Shown piece by piece: positions 2,158 through 46,619 of a stretch of DNA of 64,000 nt. The notes under the pieces are model-generated. The model was not told where the DNA came from, ran no database searches, and saw nothing but the letters and a program-made list of their open reading frames with translations. Source of the DNA: an uncultured Actinomycetes bacterium (lineage in GTDB: Bacteria > Actinomycetota > Thermoleophilia > Gaiellales > Gaiellaceae); the NCBI GenBank assembly GCA_963724315.1, contig CAVRUF010000010.1, positions 60,956-124,955 of the forward strand. The letters run 5' to 3'. A program made the translations under genes and the position numbers. Positions within the stretch are counted from its first letter, which is position 1. Every line of letters starts with the position of its first letter.

Positions 2158-2230
2158 TGGGCGGTACTGGGCTCGAACCAGTGACCCCCAGCTTGTCGAG
2201 CTGGTGCTCTCCCAACTGAGCTAACCGCCC
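2158..2230 (-). tRNA. tRNA-Val (anticodon GAC), no encoded CCA
   Basis: The reverse complement is GGGCGGTTAGCTCAGTTGGGAGAGCACCAGCTCGACAAGCTGGGGGTCACTGGTTCGAGCCCAGTACCGCCCA. It folds as a canonical cloverleaf with a 7-bp acceptor stem, GCTC/GAGC D-stem, CCAGC/GCTGG anticodon stem, loop TCGACAA, and ACTGG-TTCGAGC-CCAGT T-arm. Confidence 0.9.
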
Positions 2231-13356: not shown

Positions 13357-13384
13357 GTTTCCTCCTTCCTCGAGGGGAACGATT

Positions 13385-13550
13385 CGACGAGCGGCAGGTC
13401 TTCTGACTCGGGGCGCCCTCCTCGCCGCCTTCCCGGCCGAAGCCAGTGACGTCGTGGCGAGGAGCGTCTCCCCTTACAGCGGCGGGACCGTGCCGGACTT
13501 GCACCGGACTTCCCTTGACCGCTCGCCTAGGTTGTCGGGGCAACGCTAAC
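13385..13550 (-). promoter_or_regulatory. cobalamin (B12) riboswitch
   Basis: The minus strand reads …GGTCAAGGGAAGTCCGGTGCAAGTCCGGCACGGTCCCGCCGCTGTAAGGGGAGACG…GTCACTGGCTTCGGCCGGGAAGGCGGCGAGG…AGTCAGAAGACCTGCCGCTCG. This matches the conserved AAGGGAA / GGTG..A.TCC / GTCCCGCC.CTGT core, the B12-box-like CACTGG…GGGAAGGC, and the terminal AG.AGACCTGCC of RF00174. It ends about 25 nt before the RBS of the DUF4430 gene. Confidence 0.88.
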
Positions 13551-37079: not shown

Positions 37080-37773
37080 ATGAGCTTCCAATCGATCTGC
37101 GTCGTCGGCGACGGCCGCGTCGGACGGGCCGTCTCCGCCCGCTTGCTCGAGCGCGGCCTGGCCGTGCGCTCGACGACGCGCGAGCCGGCGTGGGACGGGG
37201 CCGACCTCGTCGTTCTCTGCGTGCCGGACCGGGCGATCGCCGAGGTGGCGGCGCAGGTTCCCGTCGGCCCGTGGATCGCGCACATGAGCGGCGCGACGAC
37301 GGCTCGACGCGCTGGCGCCGCACACGCGCCGGTTCAGCGTCCATCCGTTGCAGACGTTCGTCCTGAGCCGCGGCCCCGAGCAGCTCGACGGGATCTGGAG
37401 CGCCGTGAGCGGCGAGTCGCCCGAGGCGCTCGAGACCGGCTTCGCGCTCGCCGGGACGCTCGGCCTGCGCCCGTTCGAGCTGGCCGACGCCGACCGGCCC
37501 CTCTACCACGCCGGCGCGGCGTTCGCGGTCGCGTTCGTGGTCACGCTGCACGAGGTGGCGTCCGAGATCTTCCGTGAGGTGGGCGCGCCCGTCGAGGCGC
37601 TCGAGGCGCTCATGCGCCGCACGATCGACAACGGGTTCGAGCTCACCGGCCCGCACCGGCGGGGCGACTGGAAGACGGTCGACGAGCACATCGCGGCCCT
37701 CCACGAGCGGCATCCCGAGATCGAGCCGCTCTACCGCGCGCTCTCCGACGCGACGGCGGCCCGGCCGGAATGA
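37080..37773 (+). pseudogene. Rossmann-like + DUF2520 domain protein (putative oxidoreductase of the pantothenate cluster), one frame break near 37300
   Basis: MSFQSICVVGDGRVGRAVSARLLERG…DLVVLCVPDRAI (ORF 37080..37577) joins …HPLQTFVLS…PLYHAGAAFA… (ORF 37348..37773). It overlaps the panC start. Confidence 0.6.
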
Positions 37774-38574
37774 ACGTCGCCCGAACGGCGGCCGAGGCGC
37801 GGGCCGCGCATCCGACGGAGGGAACGGTCGGGCTCGTCCCCACGATGGGCGCGCTGCACGAGGGTCACCTCTCGCTCCTGCGCGCCGCGCGCGCCGAATG
37901 CGACTTCGTCACCGTCAGCGTCTTCGTGAACCCGGCGCAGTTCGGGCCGAACGAGGATCTCGCCCGCTATCCCCGCGACGAGGCCGGCGACCTGAAGCTG
38001 CTCGAGGCGGGCGGCGCCGATCTCGTGTTCATGCCGCCCGCCGACGGAGATCTATCCGCCGGGCTTCGACGACTGGATCGAGGTCGCCGAGGTCTCCGAA
38101 GGCCTCGAGGGCGACGCGCGGCCGGGACACTTCCGCGGCGTCGCGACCGTGTGCGCGCGGCTCTTCTCCATCCTGGAGCCGGATCGCGCCTACTTCGGCC
38201 AGAAGGACGCGCAGCAGGCCGAGGTGATCGCACGGCTGATCGAGGAGCTCGGGCTCGGGATCGAGCTGCGCGTCCTCCCGACGGTGCGCGACGCCGACGG
38301 CGTGGCGCTCTCCTCCCGCAACGCGTACCTGAGCCCGGAGGAACGCGAGGCCGCGCGGGCGATTCCGCGCGCGCTCGCGGCCGGCGAGGAGGCGTTCCGA
38401 AGCGGGGACGATCCGGCCGCCGCTGCCCGTGCGGTGCTCGCCGCGGAGCCCGGACTCGAGATCGACTACGTCGAGACCGCACACTGGAGCCCGCGGACGG
38501 TGCTTGCCGTCGCGGTGCGCGCCGGCGCCACGCGGCTCATCGACAACGTCATTCTGGAAGGATCCTGGGCATGA
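37770..38574 (+). pseudogene. panC: pantoate--beta-alanine ligase, one frame break near 38045
   Basis: …[22 protein letters not shown]…[16 protein letters not shown] (ORF 37770) joins …[16 protein letters not shown]…[10 protein letters not shown]…SSRN.YL (ORF 38149..38574). Confidence 0.88.
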
Positions 38575-39407
38575 AGCTTCCGCTCACCGAGCTGGCCGCG
38601 ATGAAGGCCGAGGGCCGCACGATCGTGATGGTCACGGCCTACGACTGCCCGACCGGACGCCTCGCGGACGAGGCGGGGATCGACATCGTCCTCGTGGGCG
38701 ACTCGGCCGCGATGACGGTGCTCGGCCACGACTCGACGGTTCCGGCCACGATGGAGGAGATGCTGATGCTCGCGCGCGCGTGCGCGCGAGGGGCCAAGAG
38801 GCCGCTCGTCGTCGGCGACCTGCCGTTCGGCTCGTACCAGGTGAACGACGAGGACGCGGTGCGAAACGCGATCCGGTTCGTGAAGGAGGCCGGGATGGAC
38901 GCCGTGAAGCTCGAAGGCGCCGGCCCCGAGGCGGACCGCGTGCGCGCGATCGTCGGCGCCGGGATCCCGGTCATGGGCCATCTGGGCCTGACCCCGCAGT
39001 CGGCGACGATGCTCGGCGGCTTCCGGGCGCAGGGCCGCACGGCCCCGGAGGCGAAGCGGCTGCTCGACGACGCGCTCGCGCTCCAGGAGGCGGGCTGCTT
39101 CGCGCTCGTGCTCGAGGCGGTTCCGGCGGCCGTGGCCGCGCGCGTGACCGCGGCGCTTTCGATTCCCACGATCGGGATCGGCTCCGGCCCGGACTGCGAC
39201 GGCCAGGTGCTCGTGCTCCACGACCTGCTGGGGCTCTACGACGGCCGCCCGGCGCGGTTCGTGAAGCGTTACGCGGAGGTCGGCGACACGATCAAGCACG
39301 CGCTGGAGCGCTTCGCCGCCGACGTCCGCTCGGGCGCGTTCCCCGAGGACGAGCACACGTACTCGATCCCGGACGACGAGCTCGCGCGCTTCGAGGCCGA
39401 CCTCTAG
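38571..39407 (+). CDS. panB: 3-methyl-2-oxobutanoate hydroxymethyltransferase
   Basis: ATG 38571 overlaps the panC stop (ATGA). [25 protein letters not shown]…VLVGDS…GDLPFGSYQ…VKLEGG-like…GHLGLTPQS…IGIG.G..CDGQVLV. Confidence 0.9.
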
Positions 39408-40054
39408 ACGGCCAGCGAGAACAGGATCCCGAGCGCGACGAGCGCGAGGACGGTGAGGACGATCGCGCCGAGCGTGCGGACGAGCGGCCAGGCGTGGACG
39501 GTCATGACGCCGAAGATGAGCAGCCCCATCGCCCAGAGCGAGAACGCGACGTCGGCGCCGTAGAAGACCCACCGGCCGGCGCTGATCGAGTCGCGGCCGC
39601 CGCTGTGGAAGACGTGATCGCCGTAGGCGGCGAGTCGGATGGGCCACACGACGAACAGCGCGAGCGCAAGCGGCGCGGCGGCGAAGGCGAGCACGTGCCG
39701 GGCCCCTCGCGCCGTCCCGGCGCCCCCGGCGCCGCGGATGCCGACCGCCAGCGCCCCGCCGCCGATCCAGTAGGTGGCCGCGCCGTAGAGGGCGCCCGCG
39801 ATGAACACGATCATCGCGACCGTGATCCCGTCCCGCCTCGGGTCGTCCATGAGCGTCCCAACGCCGGGCGTGGCGAGCACGCCCGCGATCCCGGCCAGGA
39901 ACACCAGCGCCAGCACCACCTCCTGGCGCGCATCCATGGCCTCTCGCGACTCGTCGCGGAGCGCCAGGAACGTCGAACGGGGGGTTATGAGTACCCCAAT
40001 CGAGCGAAGCCACCAGGCTCGTTCGGATCCTCCGGCGGCGGCTTCGGCCTTCAT
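39404..40054 (-). CDS. Yip1-domain family membrane protein
   Basis: Read from [34 protein letters not shown]… within ORF 39404..40147. It has five hydrophobic helices typical of Yip1/YIF-like proteins. The start is uncertain. Confidence 0.5.
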
Positions 40055-40209
40055 TGAGATCAGCTTAACCCTTGTAGCCAAGCGGCCTGGAGCCAAGCGC
40101 CCTACCACGGAGCGGTCGGTGGGATCACCCAAAAGGGGAGTGCCCACCCACCCCGATGGAGCCGAAACCTCATTCGTAAGGTCAGTCTGCGGCTACTCAA
40201 GGAGAAAAC

Positions 40210-40788
40210 ATGGCGAGGCGTACACGCAATCTGCTCACGACGCTCCTCTTGCTCGGAGTCGTCGGGAGCGTGGCCGGATGGGGCGTCTACTCGGCGTTCA
40301 CGGCCACCACGACCAACTCCGGCAACACGATCACCGCCGGCACGGTCTCGATCTCCCAGCACGCTGGTTCGACGACGCTCTACAGCGCGTCCAACCAGGG
40401 CCCCGGCGCGACCACGGTCGGCTGCATCCGGGTCACCTACGGCGGTTCGCTGGCCTCGAGCGTCAAGCTCTACAGCTCGAGCGTCACGAACGGCACGGCG
40501 TTCAACCTTCAGGTCGAGCGCGGTTCGGGCCTCACGTCGCCCGACAACACGATGAACTGCACGGGCTTCACGGCGTCGTCGACGGCGTACAACGGGGCCC
40601 TCGGCTCCTTCGCCGGGACGTACGCGGCCGGCGTCGACGGCAAGGCCGGCGGCGCTGCGTGGGCGACGAGCGACAGCGTCGACTACCGCTTCACGATCAC
40701 GGTGGTGGACGACCCGACGCCGAACGCCCACACGAGCTCGCTGAGCTCGGGTGCTCACACGTTCACGTGGGAGGCCAGGAACAACTAG
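40210..40788 (+). CDS. TasA/camelysin-like secreted protein with SipW-dependent ('alternate-type') signal peptide, paralog 1
   Basis: AAGGAGAAAAC lies before ATG 40210. MARRTRNLLTTLLLLGVVGSVAGWGVYSAFTATTTNSGNTITAGTVSIS… continues to …GCIRVTYGGSL…NCTGFT…FTWEARNN at the stop. Confidence 0.75.
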   Translation: MARRTRNLLTTLLLLGVVGSVAGWGVYSAFTATTTNSGNTITAGTVSISQHAGSTTLYSASNQGPGATTVGCIRVTYGGSLASSVKLYSSSVTNGTAFNLQVERGSGLTSPDNTMNCTGFTASSTAYNGALGSFAGTYAAGVDGKAGGAAWATSDSVDYRFTITVVDDPTPNAHTSSLSSGAHTFTWEARNN

Positions 40789-40810
40789 GACGAGCTAGCC
40801 CGACTGACGC

Positions 40811-41398
40811 TTGATCGCGCTGGGAGCGGAGATGAGATCTCTCGCCTTCGCTCCCGGCCGGTCAGGAGAGCGGGTCATGCTTGCGGCAACTCGTATCCGG
40901 ATCGACTGGCTGGCGCTCGTCGCCGGAGTCGTCCTCGCGGCAATCGCACTCGCCGGCTGGCGAGTCGACGGAGGTCTCAATCCGCCCCCCGCGGATGTCG
41001 CCCTCCTCGTAGCACCGTCCCAGGAGATCGCAATCGCGACGACCTCGGGCTCGGACGAAGCGGTGGCCATTCGAGCGACGGACTCGGAACAAGGCGTAGC
41101 GCGAGGCCTCGAGATCCGAAACGCGACGGGCGGCAAGCTCGACCTCCGTCTTCAGGCCACCCCGGCGACGGGCGAACTCGACGAGTCGCTCACCGTCCGG
41201 ATCGTGACCGGAGGACAGACGCTCTTCGAAGGGCCGCTCGGGGCGCTTCGAGCCGGAACTCCGGCCTTCGCCCTCGAGAGCCACGAGACGTCAGACGTGC
41301 AGGTGCTCGCTTGGATCCCGACCTCCGCTCGAGATGAGTCGTGGGGAGCGCGGTCCGAGCAGGTGAGGCTCGAAATCGTCACCACACCAAGCGCATGA
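40811..41398 (+). CDS. membrane-anchored beta-rich accessory protein of the TasA-like cluster (unknown family)
   Basis: ORF 40811..41398. The likely start is ATG 40877 (MLAATRIRIDWLALVAGVVLAAIALAGW, a TM helix). The ectodomain reads …LEIRNATGGKLDLRLQATP…LTVRIVTGGQTLFEGPLG…VLAWIP…VRLEIVTTP. The stop overlaps the next start (ATGA). Confidence 0.55.
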   Translation: MIALGAEMRSLAFAPGRSGERVMLAATRIRIDWLALVAGVVLAAIALAGWRVDGGLNPPPADVALLVAPSQEIAIATTSGSDEAVAIRATDSEQGVARGLEIRNATGGKLDLRLQATPATGELDESLTVRIVTGGQTLFEGPLGALRAGTPAFALESHETSDVQVLAWIPTSARDESWGARSEQVRLEIVTTPSA

Positions 41399-42049
41399 GA
41401 CTCTCGATCCAGATCATCCACACTGACGGCGGCGGCCAGGCCCAGCGGCCTGTGCGGCGGCGGCGCGGCAGGAGCAAGCTGCTCTTCCTCTCCGTCCTCT
41501 GCGCAGCTCTCGGGCTCGCCGGCTTCGGCGTCTACTCGGCCTACACGGCGACGACGACGAACACCGGCAACTCGTTCGCCTCCGGCACCGTGTCGATCAC
41601 GGACAACGACTCCTCGACGGCGATGCTGAGCCTCGCGAACGCGAAGCCCGGCGACTCCGACTCGAGTTGCGTGCGGGTGACCTACACCGGTTCCCTCGCG
41701 GCGAATGTGCACCTCTACGGCGCGTCGAGCGGCGGGCTCGCGCCGTACCTCACGCTCACGATCACCCGCGGGACGGACCCGTCGCCGTCCTTCGATTCCT
41801 GCACCGGATTCACGCCCGACGCGACGAACTACATCGGCGCAGGCGCCGGCATCGTCTACCAGGGCGCGCTCTCGGCGTTCGGCACGAACTGGGCGACCGG
41901 GGTCGTCGACCCCGTCACAGGGAGCCCGGAGAGCTGGACGCTGAACGAGTTCCACTCGTACCGCTACACGATCACGCTTGGACGACAACAACGCGGCCCA
42001 GAACCAGACCGGGACGGCCTCCTTCACCTGGGAGGCTCGGAACCTGTGA
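41395..42049 (+). pseudogene. TasA/camelysin-like secreted protein with SipW-dependent signal peptide, paralog 2; one frame break near 41980
   Basis: MRLSIQ…RRRRGRSKLLFLSVLCAALGLAGFGVYSAYTATTTNTGNSFASGTVSITDND…SCVRVTYTGSL…SCTGFTPD…HSYRYTITL reads in one frame. After removing one base in cttgg (41978-41981) it continues DDNNAAQNQTGTASFTWEARNL to the stop at 42047-42049. Confidence 0.75.
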
Positions 42050-42654
42050 CCTCGGTGACCACGTCACACGACATCTCCGCGGCATATGCGCGGGCGTGGG
42101 ACGCCCGCGTTCGTCGTTCCACGGTGGGTCGTATCGTGCGGATCGCCTGCCTCTTCGCTGGTCGGGTTCACGGTCACGATCGCGTCCGCGGTCACGGTGC
42201 CGCTGGCGTTCGGCATGCACTCGTTCGCCGTCCTGTCGGGGAGCATGGAGCCGACGATCTCGACCGGCGACGTCATCGTCGTCAAGACGATCTCGCCGCT
42301 CGAGGCGAAGGTCGGAGACGTCGTCAGCTTCCGCGACCCGGAGAACGCTTCGCGCGGCTTCTGTCGCACCGGGTCACGCAGATCCACGTGATGCCCGAGG
42401 GCGTCGCGTTCGTCACCAAGGGCGACGCGAACACCGGCGTCGAGCGCTGGCAGATCGCCCGCAACGGCACGATCGGCCGCGCCGAATACCACGTCCCCAA
42501 GCTCGGCTATCTGACGAACCGGCTCGGAAGCCGGTTCGGACGGCTGCTGTTCTTCGTCCTCCCGCTCATCCTGCTCGCGGGACTCGAGCTGCGCCGTCTT
42601 TGGAACAGCGACGACGATGATCCGAAGGAGCCGTCGGATGCGTCCGCGCACTAG
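42046..42654 (+). pseudogene. signal peptidase I, archaeal/ER type (S26B, SipW-like), 2 frame breaks
   Basis: GTG 42046 overlaps the preceding stop (GTGA). TM segment …FTVTIASAVTVPLAF… is followed by LSGSMEPTISTGDVIVVKTISP…GDVVSFRDPEN (ORF 42086..42391, catalytic Ser in SGSMEP). This joins …SHRVTQIH…FVTKGDANTGVERW…YHVPKLGY… and a C-terminal TM helix LLFFVLPLILLAGL (frame of ORF 41341..42654). Confidence 0.75.
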
Positions 42655-44504
42655 GCGTCTCCGCAGGTTCCTGATCGTCATGGTCGTCGCCGGCATCGCC
42701 GGGACGGCCGTCGGCGTCATCCACGCGGCCTTCTTCGCGACCACCGGCAACACCGGGAGCTCGTTCGACGTCCGGCTCGGTCGTGCTGACGGACAACGAC
42801 GCGGGCGCCGCCGCGCTCACCCTGTCCGCCGCCAACCCCGGCGCGACCGACACGGGCTGCATCCGGCTCTCGTACACGGGCTCGCTCAACTCGACCGTCC
42901 GCCACTACGCGGACGTCACGGGCGCGCTGGCTCCCTACCTCACCTTCAAGCTCACGCGCGGCACCGACTCGGCGCCGTCGTTCCGCTCCTGCGCGAGCTT
43001 CACGCCGGACACCTGCGACTACTTCGGAAAGGGCGCCGGCGTCCTCTACGACGGCCTGCTCTCGAGCTACCCGACCACCTATGCGGCCGGCATCCAGGAC
43101 TACACGTGCACCGGATCGTCGAACTACGCGACGACGATCACCGGGACGACCGGGATCGTCGAGCTTCTGGCGGCTCGACCCGCTCGTCAGCTCCGACTCC
43201 TACACGGACACGTCCGGGGTGCTGCTCGAAAACCACACGGGCGAGCGCGGCGCGACCTGGACGCAGACGGTGCTCTCCGAGCAGTCGGCGATCATCACGA
43301 ACGAGAACCGCACCCGGAAGAACGGGACCGGCGTCGCGGTCTACACGTCGTCCGGCGCGACCGTGAACGCCGACTACGCGGTCGAGGCCGACGTGCACGT
43401 GAAGTCGCTGATCGCGAACGACGCGATCGGCGTGCTCGGACGCTACGACCCGTCGATCGTCACGGGCACCGGAACCTGGTACCTGGCGCGCTACTCGAAC
43501 GCGGGCACGCCCCGCTGGGAGCTCTACAAGGACGTCAACGGCACCCAGACGATGCTCGGCAGCTTCAACCAGACGCTGACGGTCGGATCGAGCTACCGCG
43601 TGCGCCTCGAGATGATCGGGACTGCGATCAGGCTCTACGTCGACGGCGTCCAGCGCGTCAATGTCGTCGACGCAGCCGTCGCCGCCGCCGGCCTCCCCGG
43701 CGTCCGGATCGGCTCGCCCGGCTCCGCGGTCACGACCTCGAACACCACCGGTCTTCACTTCGACAACTACGCCGTCTACGACATCCCGGCCGACGATTCG
43801 GTCGCCGCGAACAACGGGACGATCAACGGCGGCCCGGCGAGGAACACAGGAGCGATCGCCGGCGACTCGAACGCGTCGATGGTGTTCGACGGAACGGACG
43901 ACTACGTGCGCGTCGCGCGCCAGATCTCGGACAACTTCTCGATCGAGTTCTGGTTCAACTCGACGCAGGGCATCGGGGCCGGCGGCGCCTGGACGACCGG
44001 CGCCGGGCTCGTGGACGCGAACACCGCCGGCGTGACCAACGACTTCGGCGTCTCGCTTGTCGTCCGCCGGCCGCGTGCTCGCCGGAACCGGAAACGCCGA
44101 CACGACGATCCAGTCGGGCACGGGCCTCAACGACGGGGCCTGGCACCACGTGGTCTTCACCCGCGTCCGCGCGAGCGGTGCGCTCGTCCTGTACGTCGAC
44201 GGCCAGCAGGTCGCGACCGGGACCGGCGGCACGAACGCGCTCACGGCGTCCGCGAACATCGATATCGGCCGGCTCCAGACCGCCGCGAACTACTTCGCGG
44301 GCCGCCTCGACGAGGTCGCGGTCTACAACACCGCGCTCTCCCCGGCGACGGTGCTCTCGCACTACGACACCGCCCGTGTGCCCGAGGTCTGGACGAACCC
44401 CGAGAACCACTCCTACAAGCTCGAGATCACGCTCGCGAACACGAACGCCGTCGAGGGCCTCTCCGCCACGTCGACGTTCCGGTGGGAGGCGACGAAACCA
44501 GTGA
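42638..44504 (+). pseudogene. TasA-like protein with SipW-type signal peptide, interrupted by two concanavalin/LamG-type lectin-fold domains; about 4 frame breaks
   Basis: AAGGAG lies 7 nt before ATG 42638. MRPRTRRLRRFLIVMVVAGIAGTAVGVIHAAFFATTGNTGSSF joins SGSVVLTDNDAGAAALTLS…GCIRLSYTGSL…SCASFTPD…, which joins SFWRLDP…WYLARYSN…IRLYVDGVQ… (jelly-roll 1). That joins …MVFDGTDDYVRVA…FSIEFWF…GAWHHVVFT…LVLYVDGQQV…FAGRLDEVAVYNTALSPATVLSHY (LamG). The last segment is …PENHSYKLEITLANTNAVEGLSATSTFRWEAT(NQ), with the stop at 44502-44504 after removing one A from AAA 44495-44497. Confidence 0.65.
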
Positions 44505-45644
44505 TGCGCCTCCTCACCGTCGTCTGCGCGATCGCCGTCGCCCTCGGAACGGCCGCGGCCGCCTTGGCCGCCTTCAGCGCGATCACGTCGAACGCGAGCA
44601 CGTTCTCGGCGAACCCGGACCTCTCGAACCCGACGGTCACGGCGTCGATCATCGCGCGCCCGTCCGGCCTCCTCCCCGGGAAGATCCGCCAGGGCGGCCA
44701 GTACTACGTCTACGCGAACGCGACCGACGCGGGCAACCCGCCGAGCGGGATCTCGACGGTCACGGCCAACATGACGACGTTCGACACGGGCACCGGCTCG
44801 GTCGCGCTGACGACGGCCGGCGGCCCCTGGACGGTGAACGCGGTCTCGTACGCGTACCGCTCGGCGCTCCTGACCGCGAACACGCCGCTCGTCACCGGCA
44901 CCTCCTACGTCTACACGGTCACGGCGAACGACAACGCGTCCCACACGAGCGGCGCGACGAACTTCAACGTCACGATCGAGACCTACGCGGAGGTCATCTC
45001 CGCGATGACCGGGCTCGTCAGCTACTGGAAGCTGAACGAGGGCGCCGGGACGAACGCGGCCGACAGCGCCGGCGCGAACACCGGCACGTACACGAACACG
45101 CCGACGCTCGGCCAGGCCGGCGCGCTGACCGGCGACACGACCACGTCGGTGTCCTTCAACGGCACGAACGAGTACGTGAACGTCGCCGACGCGGCCTCGC
45201 CTCGACATCACGGGCAACATCACGATCGAGGCCTGGATCCGCTCGAACACGCTCATCAACAACTCGACGATCCTGTCGAAGGGCTCGACGGCCGGCTACC
45301 GCCTGATGCGGAACGGCAACAACAACCCGTCCCAGTTCGGCACGAGCGGCCCGACCAACGGGAACCTGAACGGCGCCACGTCGATCAACGACGGCGTCTG
45401 GCACCACATCGTCGCCGTCTACAACGGCGCGAACAAGTACATCTACCTCGACGGCGTGCAGGACGCCACGGTCGCCGCCACCGGCGCGATCACGGCGAAC
45501 GCCACCGCCCTGCGAATCGCCGAGAACGCACAGGCGACCGGGCGCTACTGGGCCGGCTGGATCGACGAGGTCTCGCTCTACAACGTCGCGCTCACGCCCG
45601 CCGAGGTGCTCGACCACTACAACGCCGGCAAGGGCACGGGGTAA
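44504..45644 (+). pseudogene. secreted Ig-like + LamG (Laminin_G_3-like) domain protein with SipW-type signal peptide; one frame break near 45200
   Basis: ATG 44504 overlaps the preceding TGA (TGATG). MRLLTVVCAIAVALGTAAAALAAFSAITSNASTFSANP… leads to a beta-rich domain, then …LVSYWKLNEGAGTNAADSAG…SVSFNGTNEYVNV. This joins …LDITGNITIEAWI… and ORF 45306..45644 (…GVWHHIVAVYNGANKYIYLDGV…WAGWIDEVSLYNVALTPAEVLDHYNAG). Confidence 0.65.
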
Positions 45645-45647
45645 CCG

Positions 45648-46615
45648 ATGAACGACGTCCACGAGCCCGAGATCCAGGGCCCCGACGACGATCCGTCGGA
45701 CGACCCGTACTACACCGGGACGCCTCCCGCCGAGCTCGCCGAGGAGCAGCTCGCGGCGCCGCTGGCTCGCGATCCTGCTCGCGATCCTCGTCATCCCGCT
45801 GCTCGTCGCGCTCGCCCTCGCGGGCGGAAGCGGGACGGGCTCCGGCTCCGGCTCCGGAGCCGCCCGAGTGCTCGGCCGCGAGCCCGGAGAACGCCGCGGC
45901 CTGCGCGACCACGACGACGGACACGACCCCGATCCAGTTCCCGGGCAACCCCGTTCCGCCCACGACGACCACGACGGGCTCGGGCGGCGGCGTCTCCGCC
46001 CGTGACGGTGTCGCCTCCCCCGCCGGTGTCGCCGCCTCCGCCGAGCTTCAATCCGACCCCTCCGCCGAGCCCGGCTCCGCCGCCTCCGCCCACGCCTCCG
46101 GCTCCGCCGCCCCCGCCTTCGCCTTCGCCTCCCCCGCCGCCCCCGGCGTACGACGGGCCTCCGAAGCTGACGCAGCTGAACGGCAGCAAGCCGCTCTTCA
46201 AGCTGCCGAACGCGGCCGCCGGCAAGACGGTCTCGCGCTGCGTGACGATCAAGTACAACGGGAATCCGTCCGCGCGCGTGCGGCTCTTCGGCGACCCCAG
46301 CGGCGGGCTCGAGAACTACATCGACCTGAAGGTCGTGCGCGGCACGTCCACCTCGGGCACGAACGGCTCGTGCGCCGGGTTCACGCCCGACTCGACGAAC
46401 TACCTCGGCGACGGCTCAGGCGTGATCTTCAAGGGGCTCCTGTCGACCTTCCCGGCGACGTTCGCGGCAAGCCAGGACGATCCCACCCAGGCCGACCGCG
46501 AGAAGTGGACGAACGGCGAGAAGCACACGTACCGCTTCGAGGTGACGCTCCGCTCGAACAACGCCGCGCAGGGCCTCACGGTCTCGATGGACTTCGCCTG
46601 GCAGGCGAAGGACTA

Positions 46616-46619
<4 letters not shown>
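45648..46619 (+). pseudogene. type-II membrane-anchored protein: acidic cytoplasmic N-terminus, TM helix, Thr/Pro-rich stalk, C-terminal TasA-like domain; about 3 frame breaks
   Basis: MNDVHEPEIQGPDDDPSDDPYYTGTPPAELAEEQLAA joins RRRWLAILLAILVIPLLVALALAGGSGTGSGSGS (second frame). This joins EPPECSAASPENAAACATTTTDTTPIQFPGNPVPPTTTTTGSGGG (third frame). It then returns to PPVTVSPPPPVSPPPPSFNPTPPPSPAPPPPPTPPAPPPPPSPSPPPPPPAYDGPP…SRCVTIKYNGN…SCAGFTPD…HTYRFEVTLRSNNAAQGLTVSMDFAWQAKDY at the stop. Confidence 0.6.

What the first reader, a model, noticed from the sequence alone, without database searches (positions are those of the whole stretch)
42638..44504. TasA-like fold interrupted by about 430 aa of concanavalin/LamG-type domains (possible tip or adhesin subunit)
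The N-terminal two thirds of the TasA-like domain run through …GCIRLSYTGSL…SCASFTPDTCDYFGKGAGVLYDGLLSSYPTTYAAGIQDY. The last strands are …PENHSYKLEITLANTNAVEGLSATSTFRWEAT. Both align position-for-position with paralog 2 (…SCVRVTYTGSL…SCTGFTPD…ESWTLNEFHSYRYTITLDDNNAAQNQTGTASFTWEARNL). Between them sit two lectin-fold modules. The second carries the Laminin_G_3 hallmark …WHHVVFT…LYVDGQQV…FAGRLDEVAVYNTALS. A domain inserted into a loop of a polymerising subunit is how pilus adhesins are often built. I am not aware of a TasA-family example.
Basis: partly seen in the sequence, partly recalled or inferred. Interest (0 to 1): 0.62.

Follow-up and report, generated by a model that had tools for sequence, protein, structure and literature searches.

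The report
Lectin domains inserted in TasA-like fibre subunit
This is one real gene from a soil or bog actinobacterium, broken in this assembly only by four spurious extra bases, that encodes a biofilm-fibre (TasA-type) subunit with two sugar-binding-type domains spliced into one of its loops; it most likely makes the fibre sticky, but that function has not been tested.

Summary
Removing four single inserted bases (42770, 43160, 44059, 44492) turns 42638..44504 into one 620-codon ORF. It is 81% identical to an intact 619-aa protein in a syntenic relative. Independent short-read contigs of a ~99% identical strain lack three of the four extra bases; the fourth is not covered. They also lack the extra bases in panC, paralog 2, the signal peptidase gene and the next gene, so the frameshifts are most likely assembly errors.

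Residues 11-154 and 581-620 align collinearly with the 217-aa paralog (52-53% identity). About 426 aa sit where the paralog has a 5-residue loop. The paralog's AF2 model has the TasA fibre (8AUR) as its only significant PDB match. The ortholog's model (pLDDT 90, pTM 0.80) keeps the same strand order around a tandem LG-type pair.

About 20 clusters share this architecture. About 10 carry a single LamG in the same loop, and one carries a C-terminal LamG.

The operon also encodes two plain TasA-like subunits, a SipW-like peptidase, a protein with a donor-strand motif and a LamG domain, and a membrane-anchored TasA-like protein.

Best reading: a lectin-bearing minor subunit of a donor-strand-exchange fibre. 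Tip versus shaft position is unresolved. It is a new variant of a known kind; haloarchaeal TafC is the closest precedent.

The parts
42638..44504 (+). Whole gene: 620 codons plus TGA, once the four spurious single-base insertions are removed
   Evidence: It is 81% identical (503/620) to the intact ortholog P0001, in the same gene order.
42770..42770 (+). Extra base 1 (G); shifts frame 2 to frame 0
   Evidence: Absent in L001. Not covered by the independent contigs, so it is inferred from orthologs only.
43160..43160 (+). Extra base 2 (C); shifts frame 0 to frame 1
   Evidence: Absent in L001 and 'left out' in contigs of run X1.
44059..44059 (+). Extra base 3 (G); shifts frame 1 to frame 2
   Evidence: Absent in L001. 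'Left out' at 44055/44057 in X1 contigs, which is the same event placed differently by the aligner.
44492..44492 (+). Extra base 4 (A). It shifts frame 2 to frame 0, and without correction the ORF runs on into the next gene.
   Evidence: Absent in L001. 'Left out' at 44491 in X1 contigs.
42638..42727 (+). Signal peptide (residues 1-30: basic n-region, hydrophobic core, ...VIHA)
   Evidence: Read directly from the sequence. Helix 4-33 in the AF2 model of P0001. The exact cleavage site is not determined. The twin arginines are not conserved among orthologs.
42728..42800 (+). TasA-type N-terminal donor-strand motif (AFFATTGNTGSSFDSGSVVLTDND, residues 31-54)
   Evidence: Conserved with the paralogs. 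It aligns with TasA 'DATFASGTLDLS...NLKPGD'. The donor-strand role in TasA is described in PMC9674648.
42801..43100 (+). TasA-like jelly-roll, N-terminal part (residues 55-154; four long strands, two invariant Cys)
43101..44380 (+). Insert (residues 155-580), in place of a 5-residue loop of paralog 2
43125..43773 (+). Insert module 1: concanavalin-A-like jelly-roll with no Pfam match (residues 163-378)
   Evidence: All-beta with pLDDT >90. Foldseek aligns the insert to tandem LG pairs and to CBM66/AbnA-type sugar-binding modules.
43888..44353 (+). Insert module 2: Laminin_G_3 domain (residues 417-571)
   Evidence: Pfam PF13385, E 8e-26.
44381..44501 (+). TasA-like jelly-roll, last two strands (residues 581-620, PEVWTNPENHSYKLEITL...STFRWEARNQ)
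   Evidence: 53% identical to the C-terminus of paralog 2, E 1e-10. Strands 587-597 and 608-618 have pLDDT 92-96 in the ortholog model.
40210..40788 (+). Operon context: TasA-like paralog 1 (192 aa, intact)
40811..41398 (+). Operon context: small protein with an N-terminal TM helix and a beta-rich domain. Function unknown; start codon uncertain.
   Evidence: Conserved in L020.
41395..42049 (+). Operon context: TasA-like paralog 2 (217 aa; one extra base at 41978)
   Evidence: NCBIfam TasA E 2e-6. Pfam PF12389 E 1.3e-4. AF2 model matches 8AUR.
42046..42654 (+). Operon context: SipW-like (archaeal/ER-type) signal peptidase I, with three extra bases (42161, 42351, 42354)
   Evidence: TIGR02228 E 2e-24 and SipW model E 1e-22..
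44501..45644 (+). Operon context: about 380-aa protein with signal peptide, TasA-type donor-strand motif, a non-TasA beta domain and a C-terminal Laminin_G_3 domain. It has one extra base at 45201. Its start overlaps the target's stop (GTGATG).
45648..46619 (+). Operon context: about 315-aa protein with a cytoplasmic N-terminus, a TM helix, a Pro/Thr-rich spacer and a TasA-like domain that lacks the donor-strand motif. Three further +1 frameshifts lie in its first half.

Best explanation
The locus encodes a single secreted 620-aa protein. A TasA-type jelly-roll subunit carries a rigid tandem of two concanavalin-A/LamG-type (lectin-like) domains, spliced into the loop before its last two beta-strands. 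The proposed mechanism has four steps. (1) The protein is exported by Sec and its signal peptide is removed by the SipW-like peptidase encoded just upstream. (2) Its conserved N-terminal donor strand inserts into the jelly-roll of a neighbouring TasA-like subunit: the 192-aa or 217-aa paralog, or the membrane-anchored 315-aa protein. Because its own jelly-roll is complete, it can also accept a strand. (3) It is therefore built into a donor-strand-exchange fibre as a minor subunit. (4) The projecting LG pair binds a glycan (own exopolysaccharide, cell wall, or plant/fungal/soil polymer) and gives the fibre adhesive or matrix-cross-linking capacity. Shown here: one gene, the insertion topology, the folds, conservation, and operon content. 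Inferred: polymerisation, position in the fibre (tip or shaft) and glycan binding. The four frameshifts in the window are assembly errors, not biology.
For: One gene. Intact orthologs of 599-642 aa exist. The syntenic intact operon is seen in L001. The extra bases are absent from independent contigs.

Insertion. There are two collinear BLASTP matches to paralog 2, with 426 aa in place of 5. The insert-deleted sequences align end to end with three paralogs and share two invariant Cys.

Fold. The paralog's AF2 model has 8AUR (TasA fibre) as its only significant PDB match (E 1e-6), followed weakly by TLP-1, CanA, FimG and PapA. The only PDB sequence-profile hits are TasA 5OF1 and 8AUR. Family members carry PF12389 and are named 'TasA family protein' or 'SipW-like signal peptide' by their sources. 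The ortholog model has pLDDT 90.2 and pTM 0.80, with strand order 5 + insert + 2 identical to the paralog. The insert matches laminin LG4-5 pairs, CBM66, AbnA domain 4, sialidase lectin domains and the lectin module of the pilin PilC.

Operon logic. The SipW-like peptidase is present. The downstream protein shares only the donor motif with the TasA-like family. The anchored TasA-like protein lacks a donor motif. The same operon occurs at 38% identity in L020.

Modularity. The same loop carries one LamG in about 10 clusters, and a C-terminal LamG fusion also exists.

Precedent. TasA donor-strand exchange and TapA nucleation are described in PMC9674648. The TafC LamG tip subunit and the TafF anchor are described in PMC11821415 and PMC12337348.
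Against: No experimental or expression data exist for this family, and no RNA run was found. The target itself does not reach significance against Pfam PF12389 or NCBIfam TasA; its membership rests on 52% identity to a paralog that scores just below the Pfam cut-off (22.3 against 22.5 bits). No multimer prediction could be run, so it is unknown whether the 426-aa insert is compatible with the fibre interfaces. One ortholog (P0010) is not next to TasA-like or SipW genes. No ligand can be named.
Confidence: 0.65

Rival explanations
1. It is a dedicated tip or nucleator subunit, functionally like TapA, TafC or FimH. On this reading it is present once per fibre at the distal end and never in the shaft.
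For: It is a single copy next to two plain subunits. It carries lectin-type domains, as do the predicted tip protein TafC (PMC11821415) and the lectin-bearing pilin PilC. It has a donor strand that could start a fibre, as proposed for TapA.
Against: Unlike TapA or TafC, it keeps a complete TasA-like acceptor fold, so nothing in the sequence prevents another subunit from donating a strand to it. The next gene (donor motif + non-TasA domain + LamG) looks more like a donor-only tip protein.
Confidence: 0.25
2. It is a non-polymerising surface or secreted lectin or carbohydrate-binding protein. On this reading the TasA-like domain is only a scaffold, or a one-off tether to the membrane-anchored 315-aa protein.
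For: The ortholog P0010 stands alone, without TasA-like or SipW neighbours. The double-LG cassette occurs in many unrelated actinobacterial surface proteins.
Against: The donor-strand motif and jelly-roll are conserved at paralog level across orthologs down to 38% identity. Most orthologs with genomic context sit in the full operon.
Confidence: 0.15
3. It is an enzyme: either a glycoside hydrolase of the concanavalin-like glucanase superfamily, or a 'camelysin'-type protease.
For: Pfam files Laminin_G_3 under 'lectin/glucanases' and PF12389 under Peptidase_M73.
Against: The Foldseek matches are lectin, LG and CBM modules, not catalytic domains. The conserved 'YxVEADV' strand has E-x-D but lacks the second glutamate of the GH16 ExDxxE/ExDxE motif (read from the sequence; the motif is from my own knowledge). 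TasA is now understood as a fibre subunit, not a protease (PMC9674648).
Confidence: 0.04
4. The gene is a decaying pseudogene, or it is three or four separate small genes, in this organism.
For: The window as given has four frameshifts in 1.9 kb. The operon (41978-46000) has about 12, while uvrA and uvrB have none.
Against: All the differences are single-base insertions, with no stops or deletions. Every one that is covered by independent contigs of a ~99% identical strain is absent there, including those in the housekeeping gene panC. Each frame segment keeps 81% identity to the ortholog. Other MAG-derived gene calls show different frameshifts in the same gene (P0002, P0108).
Confidence: 0.04

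Closest known systems
TasA (Bacillus subtilis biofilm fibre subunit; PDB 5OF1, 8AUR) and the tapA-sipW-tasA operon
   Same: SipW-type signal peptidase in the operon. N-terminal motif ...F-A-S-G-T/S-V/L...KPGD. Jelly-roll fold: 8AUR is the only significant match of the paralog model. Multiple paralogous subunits.
   Different: Sequence similarity to TasA itself is marginal (E 0.3 by profile). TasA has no inserted domain. The host is a high-GC Actinomycetota organism, not a Bacillota one. The accessory proteins differ: no TapA homolog was detected, and there is instead a membrane-anchored TasA-like protein and LamG proteins.
TafC, predicted tip subunit of haloarchaeal Tat-fimbriae (PMC11821415; NCBIfam NF052521)
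   Same: A minor subunit of a TasA-superfamily donor-strand fibre that combines a pilin-like domain with a LamG domain. The locus also has a signal peptidase (TafD) and TM-anchored jelly-roll proteins (TafF).
   Different: In TafC the LamG domain is appended C-terminally, with only about 10 residues after it. Here two domains are inserted before the last two strands. Only the LamG part matches the TafC model (25 bits against a cut-off of 410). No conserved Tat motif is present here. The organisms are bacterial versus archaeal.
Modular type IV pilins PilB and PilC of Streptococcus sanguinis (PDB 7OA7/7OA8)
   Same: A lectin-type concanavalin-like module grafted onto a polymerising pilin so that the fibre itself is adhesive. 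It appears as a Foldseek hit at E 2e-7.
   Different: The pilin fold and assembly machinery are unrelated (type IV). The module is grafted at the C-terminus, not inserted in a loop.
Sortase-pilus tip adhesins with nested domains (e.g. RrgA, GBS104, SpaC) and chaperone-usher adhesins (FimH, PapG)
   Same: A binding domain is combined with a pilin-type domain. In RrgA-type adhesins the binding domain is inserted within a stalk domain, so the chain returns to complete it (my own knowledge, not tested here).
   Different: The folds, the covalent or chaperone-usher assembly, and the binding domains (vWA or other lectins) all differ. FimH and PapG are N-terminal fusions that lack a donor strand.

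Membership tests
TasA / camelysin family (Pfam PF12389 Peptidase_M73; NCBI 'TasA family protein') | Significant match to the family profile | tested here: inconclusive
   The target has no PF12389 or TasA hit, either as a whole or with the insert deleted. Paralog 2 scores PF12389 E 1.3e-4, 22.3 bits against a cut-off of 22.5, and NCBIfam TasA E 2e-6. Many 60-90% identical relatives of paralog 2 carry PF12389, and one is named 'TasA family protein'. P0378, a LamG fusion from the same family, passes the cut-off at 25.4 bits. The target is 52% identical to paralog 2.
TasA / camelysin family | TasA-type jelly-roll fold | tested here: met
   The paralog 2 model has 8AUR_A as its only match with E<=0.001 (E 1e-6, 212 columns, TM 0.47/0.44). 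The ortholog of the target has the same strand order at high pLDDT.
TasA / camelysin family | N-terminal signal peptide followed by the conserved donor-strand segment, with a SipW-type peptidase encoded alongside | tested here: met
   The motif AAFFATTGNTGSSFDSGSVVLTDND is conserved with the paralogs. It aligns with TasA residues 'DATFASGTLDLS..NLKPGD'. The peptidase matches TIGR02228 at E 2e-24, above its cut-off, and the SipW model at E 1e-22, below its equivalog cut-off.
TasA / camelysin family | Polymerisation into fibres by donor-strand exchange | not testable with these tools
   No multimer prediction and no experimental data are available. The claim rests on analogy with PMC9674648.
Laminin_G_3 / concanavalin-A-like lectin superfamily (PF13385) | Profile match above the gathering score, and an LG-type jelly-roll fold | tested here: met
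   PF13385 E 8e-26, 91.4 bits against 27.6. Foldseek matches laminin LG4-5 pairs at E 4e-12 and CBM66 at TMt 0.83. The first module has no Pfam hit and is assigned by fold only.
Laminin_G_3 / concanavalin-A-like lectin superfamily | Carbohydrate (or other ligand) binding | not testable with these tools
   No ligand can be inferred. Conserved aromatic and acidic positions are listed.
Haloarchaeal TafC (NCBIfam NF052521) | Equivalog-level profile match | tested here: not met
   25.2 bits against a cut-off of 410. Only residues 491-586 (the LamG part) match.
Haloarchaeal TafC (NCBIfam NF052521) | Twin-arginine (Tat) signal | tested here: not met
   The target has RR pairs (TRRLRRFL), but orthologs P0009 and P0012 have none and the spacing to the hydrophobic core varies. 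No dedicated Tat predictor was available.
TapA (B. subtilis) | TapA-type domain following the donor-like N-terminus | tested here: not met
   No TapA family hit for any operon protein in NCBIfam or Pfam.

The most novel reading that the evidence does not exclude
Actinomycetota build complete TasA-type donor-strand fibres with three kinds of part: a membrane anchor (TM helix, proline-rich spacer and an acceptor-only jelly-roll), plain shaft subunits, and lectin-bearing subunits. The loop-inserted LG pair would let a subunit be both donor and acceptor. Lectins would then stud the shaft at intervals instead of capping it, giving a multivalent glycan-binding matrix fibre. That arrangement has not been described for any donor-strand pilus.
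Probability: 0.3. Interest if true: 0.65.

Novelty: new variant of a known kind. Interest (0 to 1): 0.45.

Why it matters
TasA-superfamily fibres are now recognised as a shared bacterial and archaeal solution for building biofilm matrix. How they acquire binding specificity is mostly unknown. This family shows a permissive loop in the jelly-roll that accepts one or two lectin modules without removing either the donor strand or the acceptor fold. That differs from the terminal fusions seen in TafC, FimH or the modular type IV pilins. It offers a testable route to multivalent, glycan-binding fibres in abundant but uncultured soil and peat Actinomycetota. It also marks a natural insertion site for displaying cargo on TasA-type fibres. 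Practically, it shows that the fragmented ORFs in this window, and the ~1000-aa 'fusion' proteins in public databases, are indel artefacts of MAG assemblies.

Tried and rejected
I folded the intact 81%-identical ortholog instead.
2. Model coordinates are not exposed, so N/C contacts and the geometry of the insert could not be measured.
3. The Foldseek search with the full-length model is dominated by the LG pair and shows no TasA hit in the top 50. The TasA fold was therefore tested through the paralog.
4. The genome-collection scan used a pattern from insert module 1. It mostly returned the cassette in unrelated proteins, for example a 1394-aa Nocardioides endophyticus protein. This showed that the cassette is mobile, but gave no census of the architecture.
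5. The top of the representative search is swamped by giant multi-LamG proteins. Only 3 + 3 clusters of the architecture are visible in the best 150.
6. A Tat-signal idea, prompted by RRLRRFL and by tafi, was rejected because the arginines are not conserved.
7. Phase variation or programmed frameshifting was rejected. The insertions are not in repeats or long homopolymers, and they are absent from an independent data set.
8. No RNA-seq run holds the operon.
9. Cluster look-up gave no organism names. Taxonomy beyond 'Actinomycetota' rests on the relatives' names (Gaiellaceae, Nocardioidaceae, and SsgA in L020) and is not established.
10. Four literature searches for TasA/SipW combined with LamG or domain insertion found nothing beyond the tafi papers.
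Full report
**1. What is in the sequence**

They lie in four successive reading frames, each +1 from the one before.

A protein search with a read-through translation found intact single-ORF relatives. These include P0001 (619 aa, 81% identity, 99% coverage, on a 2.6-Mb contig) and about a dozen more of 605-642 aa, down to 38% identity.

The locus of P0001 (L001) is syntenic with the window over more than 20 kb. Its gene order is panC, panB, Yip1, then the operon, then uvrA. All genes in it are intact. The operon runs: 192-aa protein, 173-aa protein, 217-aa protein, signal peptidase, 619-aa protein, 380-aa LamG protein, 315-aa protein.

**2. The frameshifts are artefacts**

A base-level alignment of the window with L001 shows that every net frameshift in the window is a single inserted base. 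The positions are:
- the target: 42770, 43160, 44059, 44492
- paralog 2: 41978
- the peptidase gene: 42161, 42351, 42354
- the next gene: 45201
- panC: near 38037

Three more lie in the first half of the 315-aa gene.

Logan contigs of a public bog-metagenome run (X1) hold a strain 98-99% identical to the window. In those contigs the extra bases are 'left out' at 42352, 42354, 43160, 44055/57, 44491 and 45200, and at 38046 and 41975. Position 42770 is not covered.

None of the insertions lies in a repeat or a long homopolymer. Other metagenome-derived gene calls of the same gene (P0002, P0108, about 1000 aa) carry different frameshifts near the 3' end, and these fuse the gene to the downstream one.

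I conclude that the breaks are assembly errors. They are denser in this operon than in uvrA or uvrB, which have none. I cannot explain that difference.

Deleting the four bases gives one ORF, 42638..44504, of 620 codons plus TGA. It ends ...FRWEARNQ and is 81% identical to P0001. Its stop overlaps the start of the next gene (GTGATG).

**3. The insertion**

BLASTP of the read-through protein against the 217-aa paralog gives two collinear matches. Residues 18-161 match paralog 31-172 (52% identity, E 3e-43). Residues 588-627 match paralog 178-217 (53%, E 1e-10). So 426 residues stand where the paralog has five.

Insert-deleted versions of the target and of two orthologs align end to end with paralog 1, with paralog 2 and with the C-terminal domain of the 315-aa protein. 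All share two invariant cysteines.

**4. Folds**

AF2 on the intact ortholog, with a 46-sequence alignment, gives mean pLDDT 90.2 and pTM 0.80. The order of elements is: signal helix; strands 50-52, 70-79, 85-95, 101-109, 135-140; an all-beta insert at 163-576; strands 587-597 and 608-618. The last two strands have pLDDT 92-96.

AF2 on paralog 2 (pLDDT 76; 83-96 over most of the core) gives the same seven strands with no insert. The offset is -18 before the insertion point and +402 after it.

Foldseek with the paralog model finds one significant PDB match, the cryo-EM TasA fibre 8AUR (E 1e-6). Weaker matches to other donor-strand subunits follow: TLP-1, CanA, FimG, PapA. A sequence profile of the paralog family hits only TasA (5OF1, 8AUR) in the PDB. 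The hit is weak (E 0.3) but falls on the expected 'FASGT...KPGD...GSL' segment.

Close relatives of the paralog carry Pfam PF12389. Their sources name them 'TasA family protein', 'camelysin' or 'SipW-like signal peptide' proteins.

The full-length model matches tandem LG pairs (laminin LG4-5, E 4e-12), neurexin LNS pairs, single sugar-binding modules (CBM66, TMt 0.83; AbnA domain 4), sialidase lectin domains and the lectin module of the type IV pilin PilC. Pfam places Laminin_G_3 on the second module (E 8e-26). The first module has no Pfam match.

The statement that the two TasA parts form one domain therefore rests on confidence values, strand order and homology, not on measured contacts.

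**5. Distribution and modularity**

Searches of the 5.8-billion and 1.84-billion protein sets found the following:
- About 20 clusters (at 90% identity) with the double insert.
- About 10 clusters of 398-443 aa with a single Laminin_G_3 domain in the same loop, for example P0017, P0370 and P0376.
- One protein (P0378) with a complete TasA-like domain followed by a C-terminal LamG. It passes the PF12389 gathering score.

All come from metagenomes or MAGs. The names that are available point to Actinomycetota: Gaiellaceae, Nocardioidaceae, and SsgA next to the L020 locus.

The double cassette on its own (residues ~167-585) is 45-50% identical to modules in many unrelated actinobacterial surface proteins. 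It therefore behaves as a mobile binding module.

An ortholog at 38% identity (L020) sits in the same operon: two TasA-like genes, a TM/beta protein, the peptidase, the target, and a 588-aa LamG protein. Another ortholog (P0010) stands alone.

**6. Operon logic and mechanism**

In TasA fibres the N-terminal strand of each subunit completes the sheet of the next, and TapA is thought to supply the first strand (PMC9674648). In haloarchaeal tafi a LamG-bearing TafC is modelled at the tip and TM-anchored jelly-roll proteins (TafF) at the base (PMC11821415; PMC12337348).

The proteins encoded here fall into three groups:
- Donor and acceptor: the 192-aa and 217-aa paralogs and the target.
- Donor motif only: the 380-aa protein. 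hhalign finds only the signal peptide and donor motif in common with the TasA-like family.
- Acceptor only: the 315-aa protein, with a TM helix, a Pro/Thr-rich spacer and a jelly-roll that lacks the donor motif.

The most economical reading is a membrane-anchored donor-strand fibre. In it the target is a lectin-bearing minor subunit. Because it keeps both functions, it could sit at or next to the tip, or at intervals along the shaft. This cannot be decided here.

Polymerisation, processing by the SipW-like peptidase and glycan binding are all inferences.

**7. Comparison with what is known, and novelty**

By fold, N-terminal motif and operon partner, the protein belongs with the TasA superfamily. 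Direct profile evidence for the target itself is lacking.

It is not a TafC family member: 25 bits against a cut-off of 410, no conserved Tat motif, and a different topology.

Full-text searches found no description of a LamG or other domain inserted into a TasA-type subunit. The concept of a lectin-carrying minor subunit is established. The loop insertion, in single and double forms, and the complete actinobacterial operon appear undescribed.

I rate it a new variant of a known kind, of moderate interest.

Noticed in passing
window 37770-46100 (panC ~38037; 41978; 42161; 42351; 42354; 42770; 43160; 44059; 44492; 45201; three more within 45700-46000): The window carries many single-base insertions relative to a syntenic relative and to independent contigs. 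They are dense in the TasA-like operon (about 3 per kb), while uvrA (2.8 kb) and uvrB have none. No common sequence motif was seen around them. The cause of the clustering is unexplained.
   Followed up: partly
window 44501-45644: The downstream gene encodes a signal peptide, a TasA-type donor-strand motif, a ~150-aa beta domain unrelated to TasA, and a C-terminal Laminin_G_3 domain. This is a donor-only architecture, and it is a better formal analogue of TapA or TafC than the target. Relatives (P0065, P0069, the 588-aa protein of L020) carry the double LG cassette instead.
   Followed up: partly
window 45648-46619: This gene encodes a protein with a cytoplasmic N-terminus, one TM helix (RRRWLAILLAILVIPLLVALALAGG, readable only in another frame), a long Pro/Thr-rich spacer and a TasA-like domain without a donor motif. 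It is a candidate cell-anchoring acceptor subunit, comparable to haloarchaeal TafF.
   Followed up: partly
window 40811-41398: A small conserved protein with an N-terminal TM helix and a beta-rich ectodomain lies between the two plain TasA-like genes. It is also present in L001 and L020. It has no family match and its role is unknown.
   Followed up: no
proteins P0002 (1009 aa) and P0108 (1002 aa), public MAG gene calls: These are apparent 'fusion' proteins of the target and the downstream LamG gene. They arise from frameshifts in the last ~35 codons, at positions different from the one in the window. They are database artefacts, not real fusions.
   Followed up: yes
protein P0378 (429 aa) and P0017, P0370, P0376 (about 435 aa): The same actinobacterial TasA-like family also contains a C-terminal LamG fusion, and versions with only one LamG inserted in the same loop.
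   Followed up: yes
window 13376-13538 (-) and 2158-2230 (-): A cobalamin riboswitch (96 bits) and a tRNA gene.
   Followed up: no
L019 9012-10421: The stand-alone ortholog P0010 is followed by a PAS-GAF-GGDEF diguanylate cyclase gene. This may hint at a link to c-di-GMP and biofilm control.
   Followed up: no
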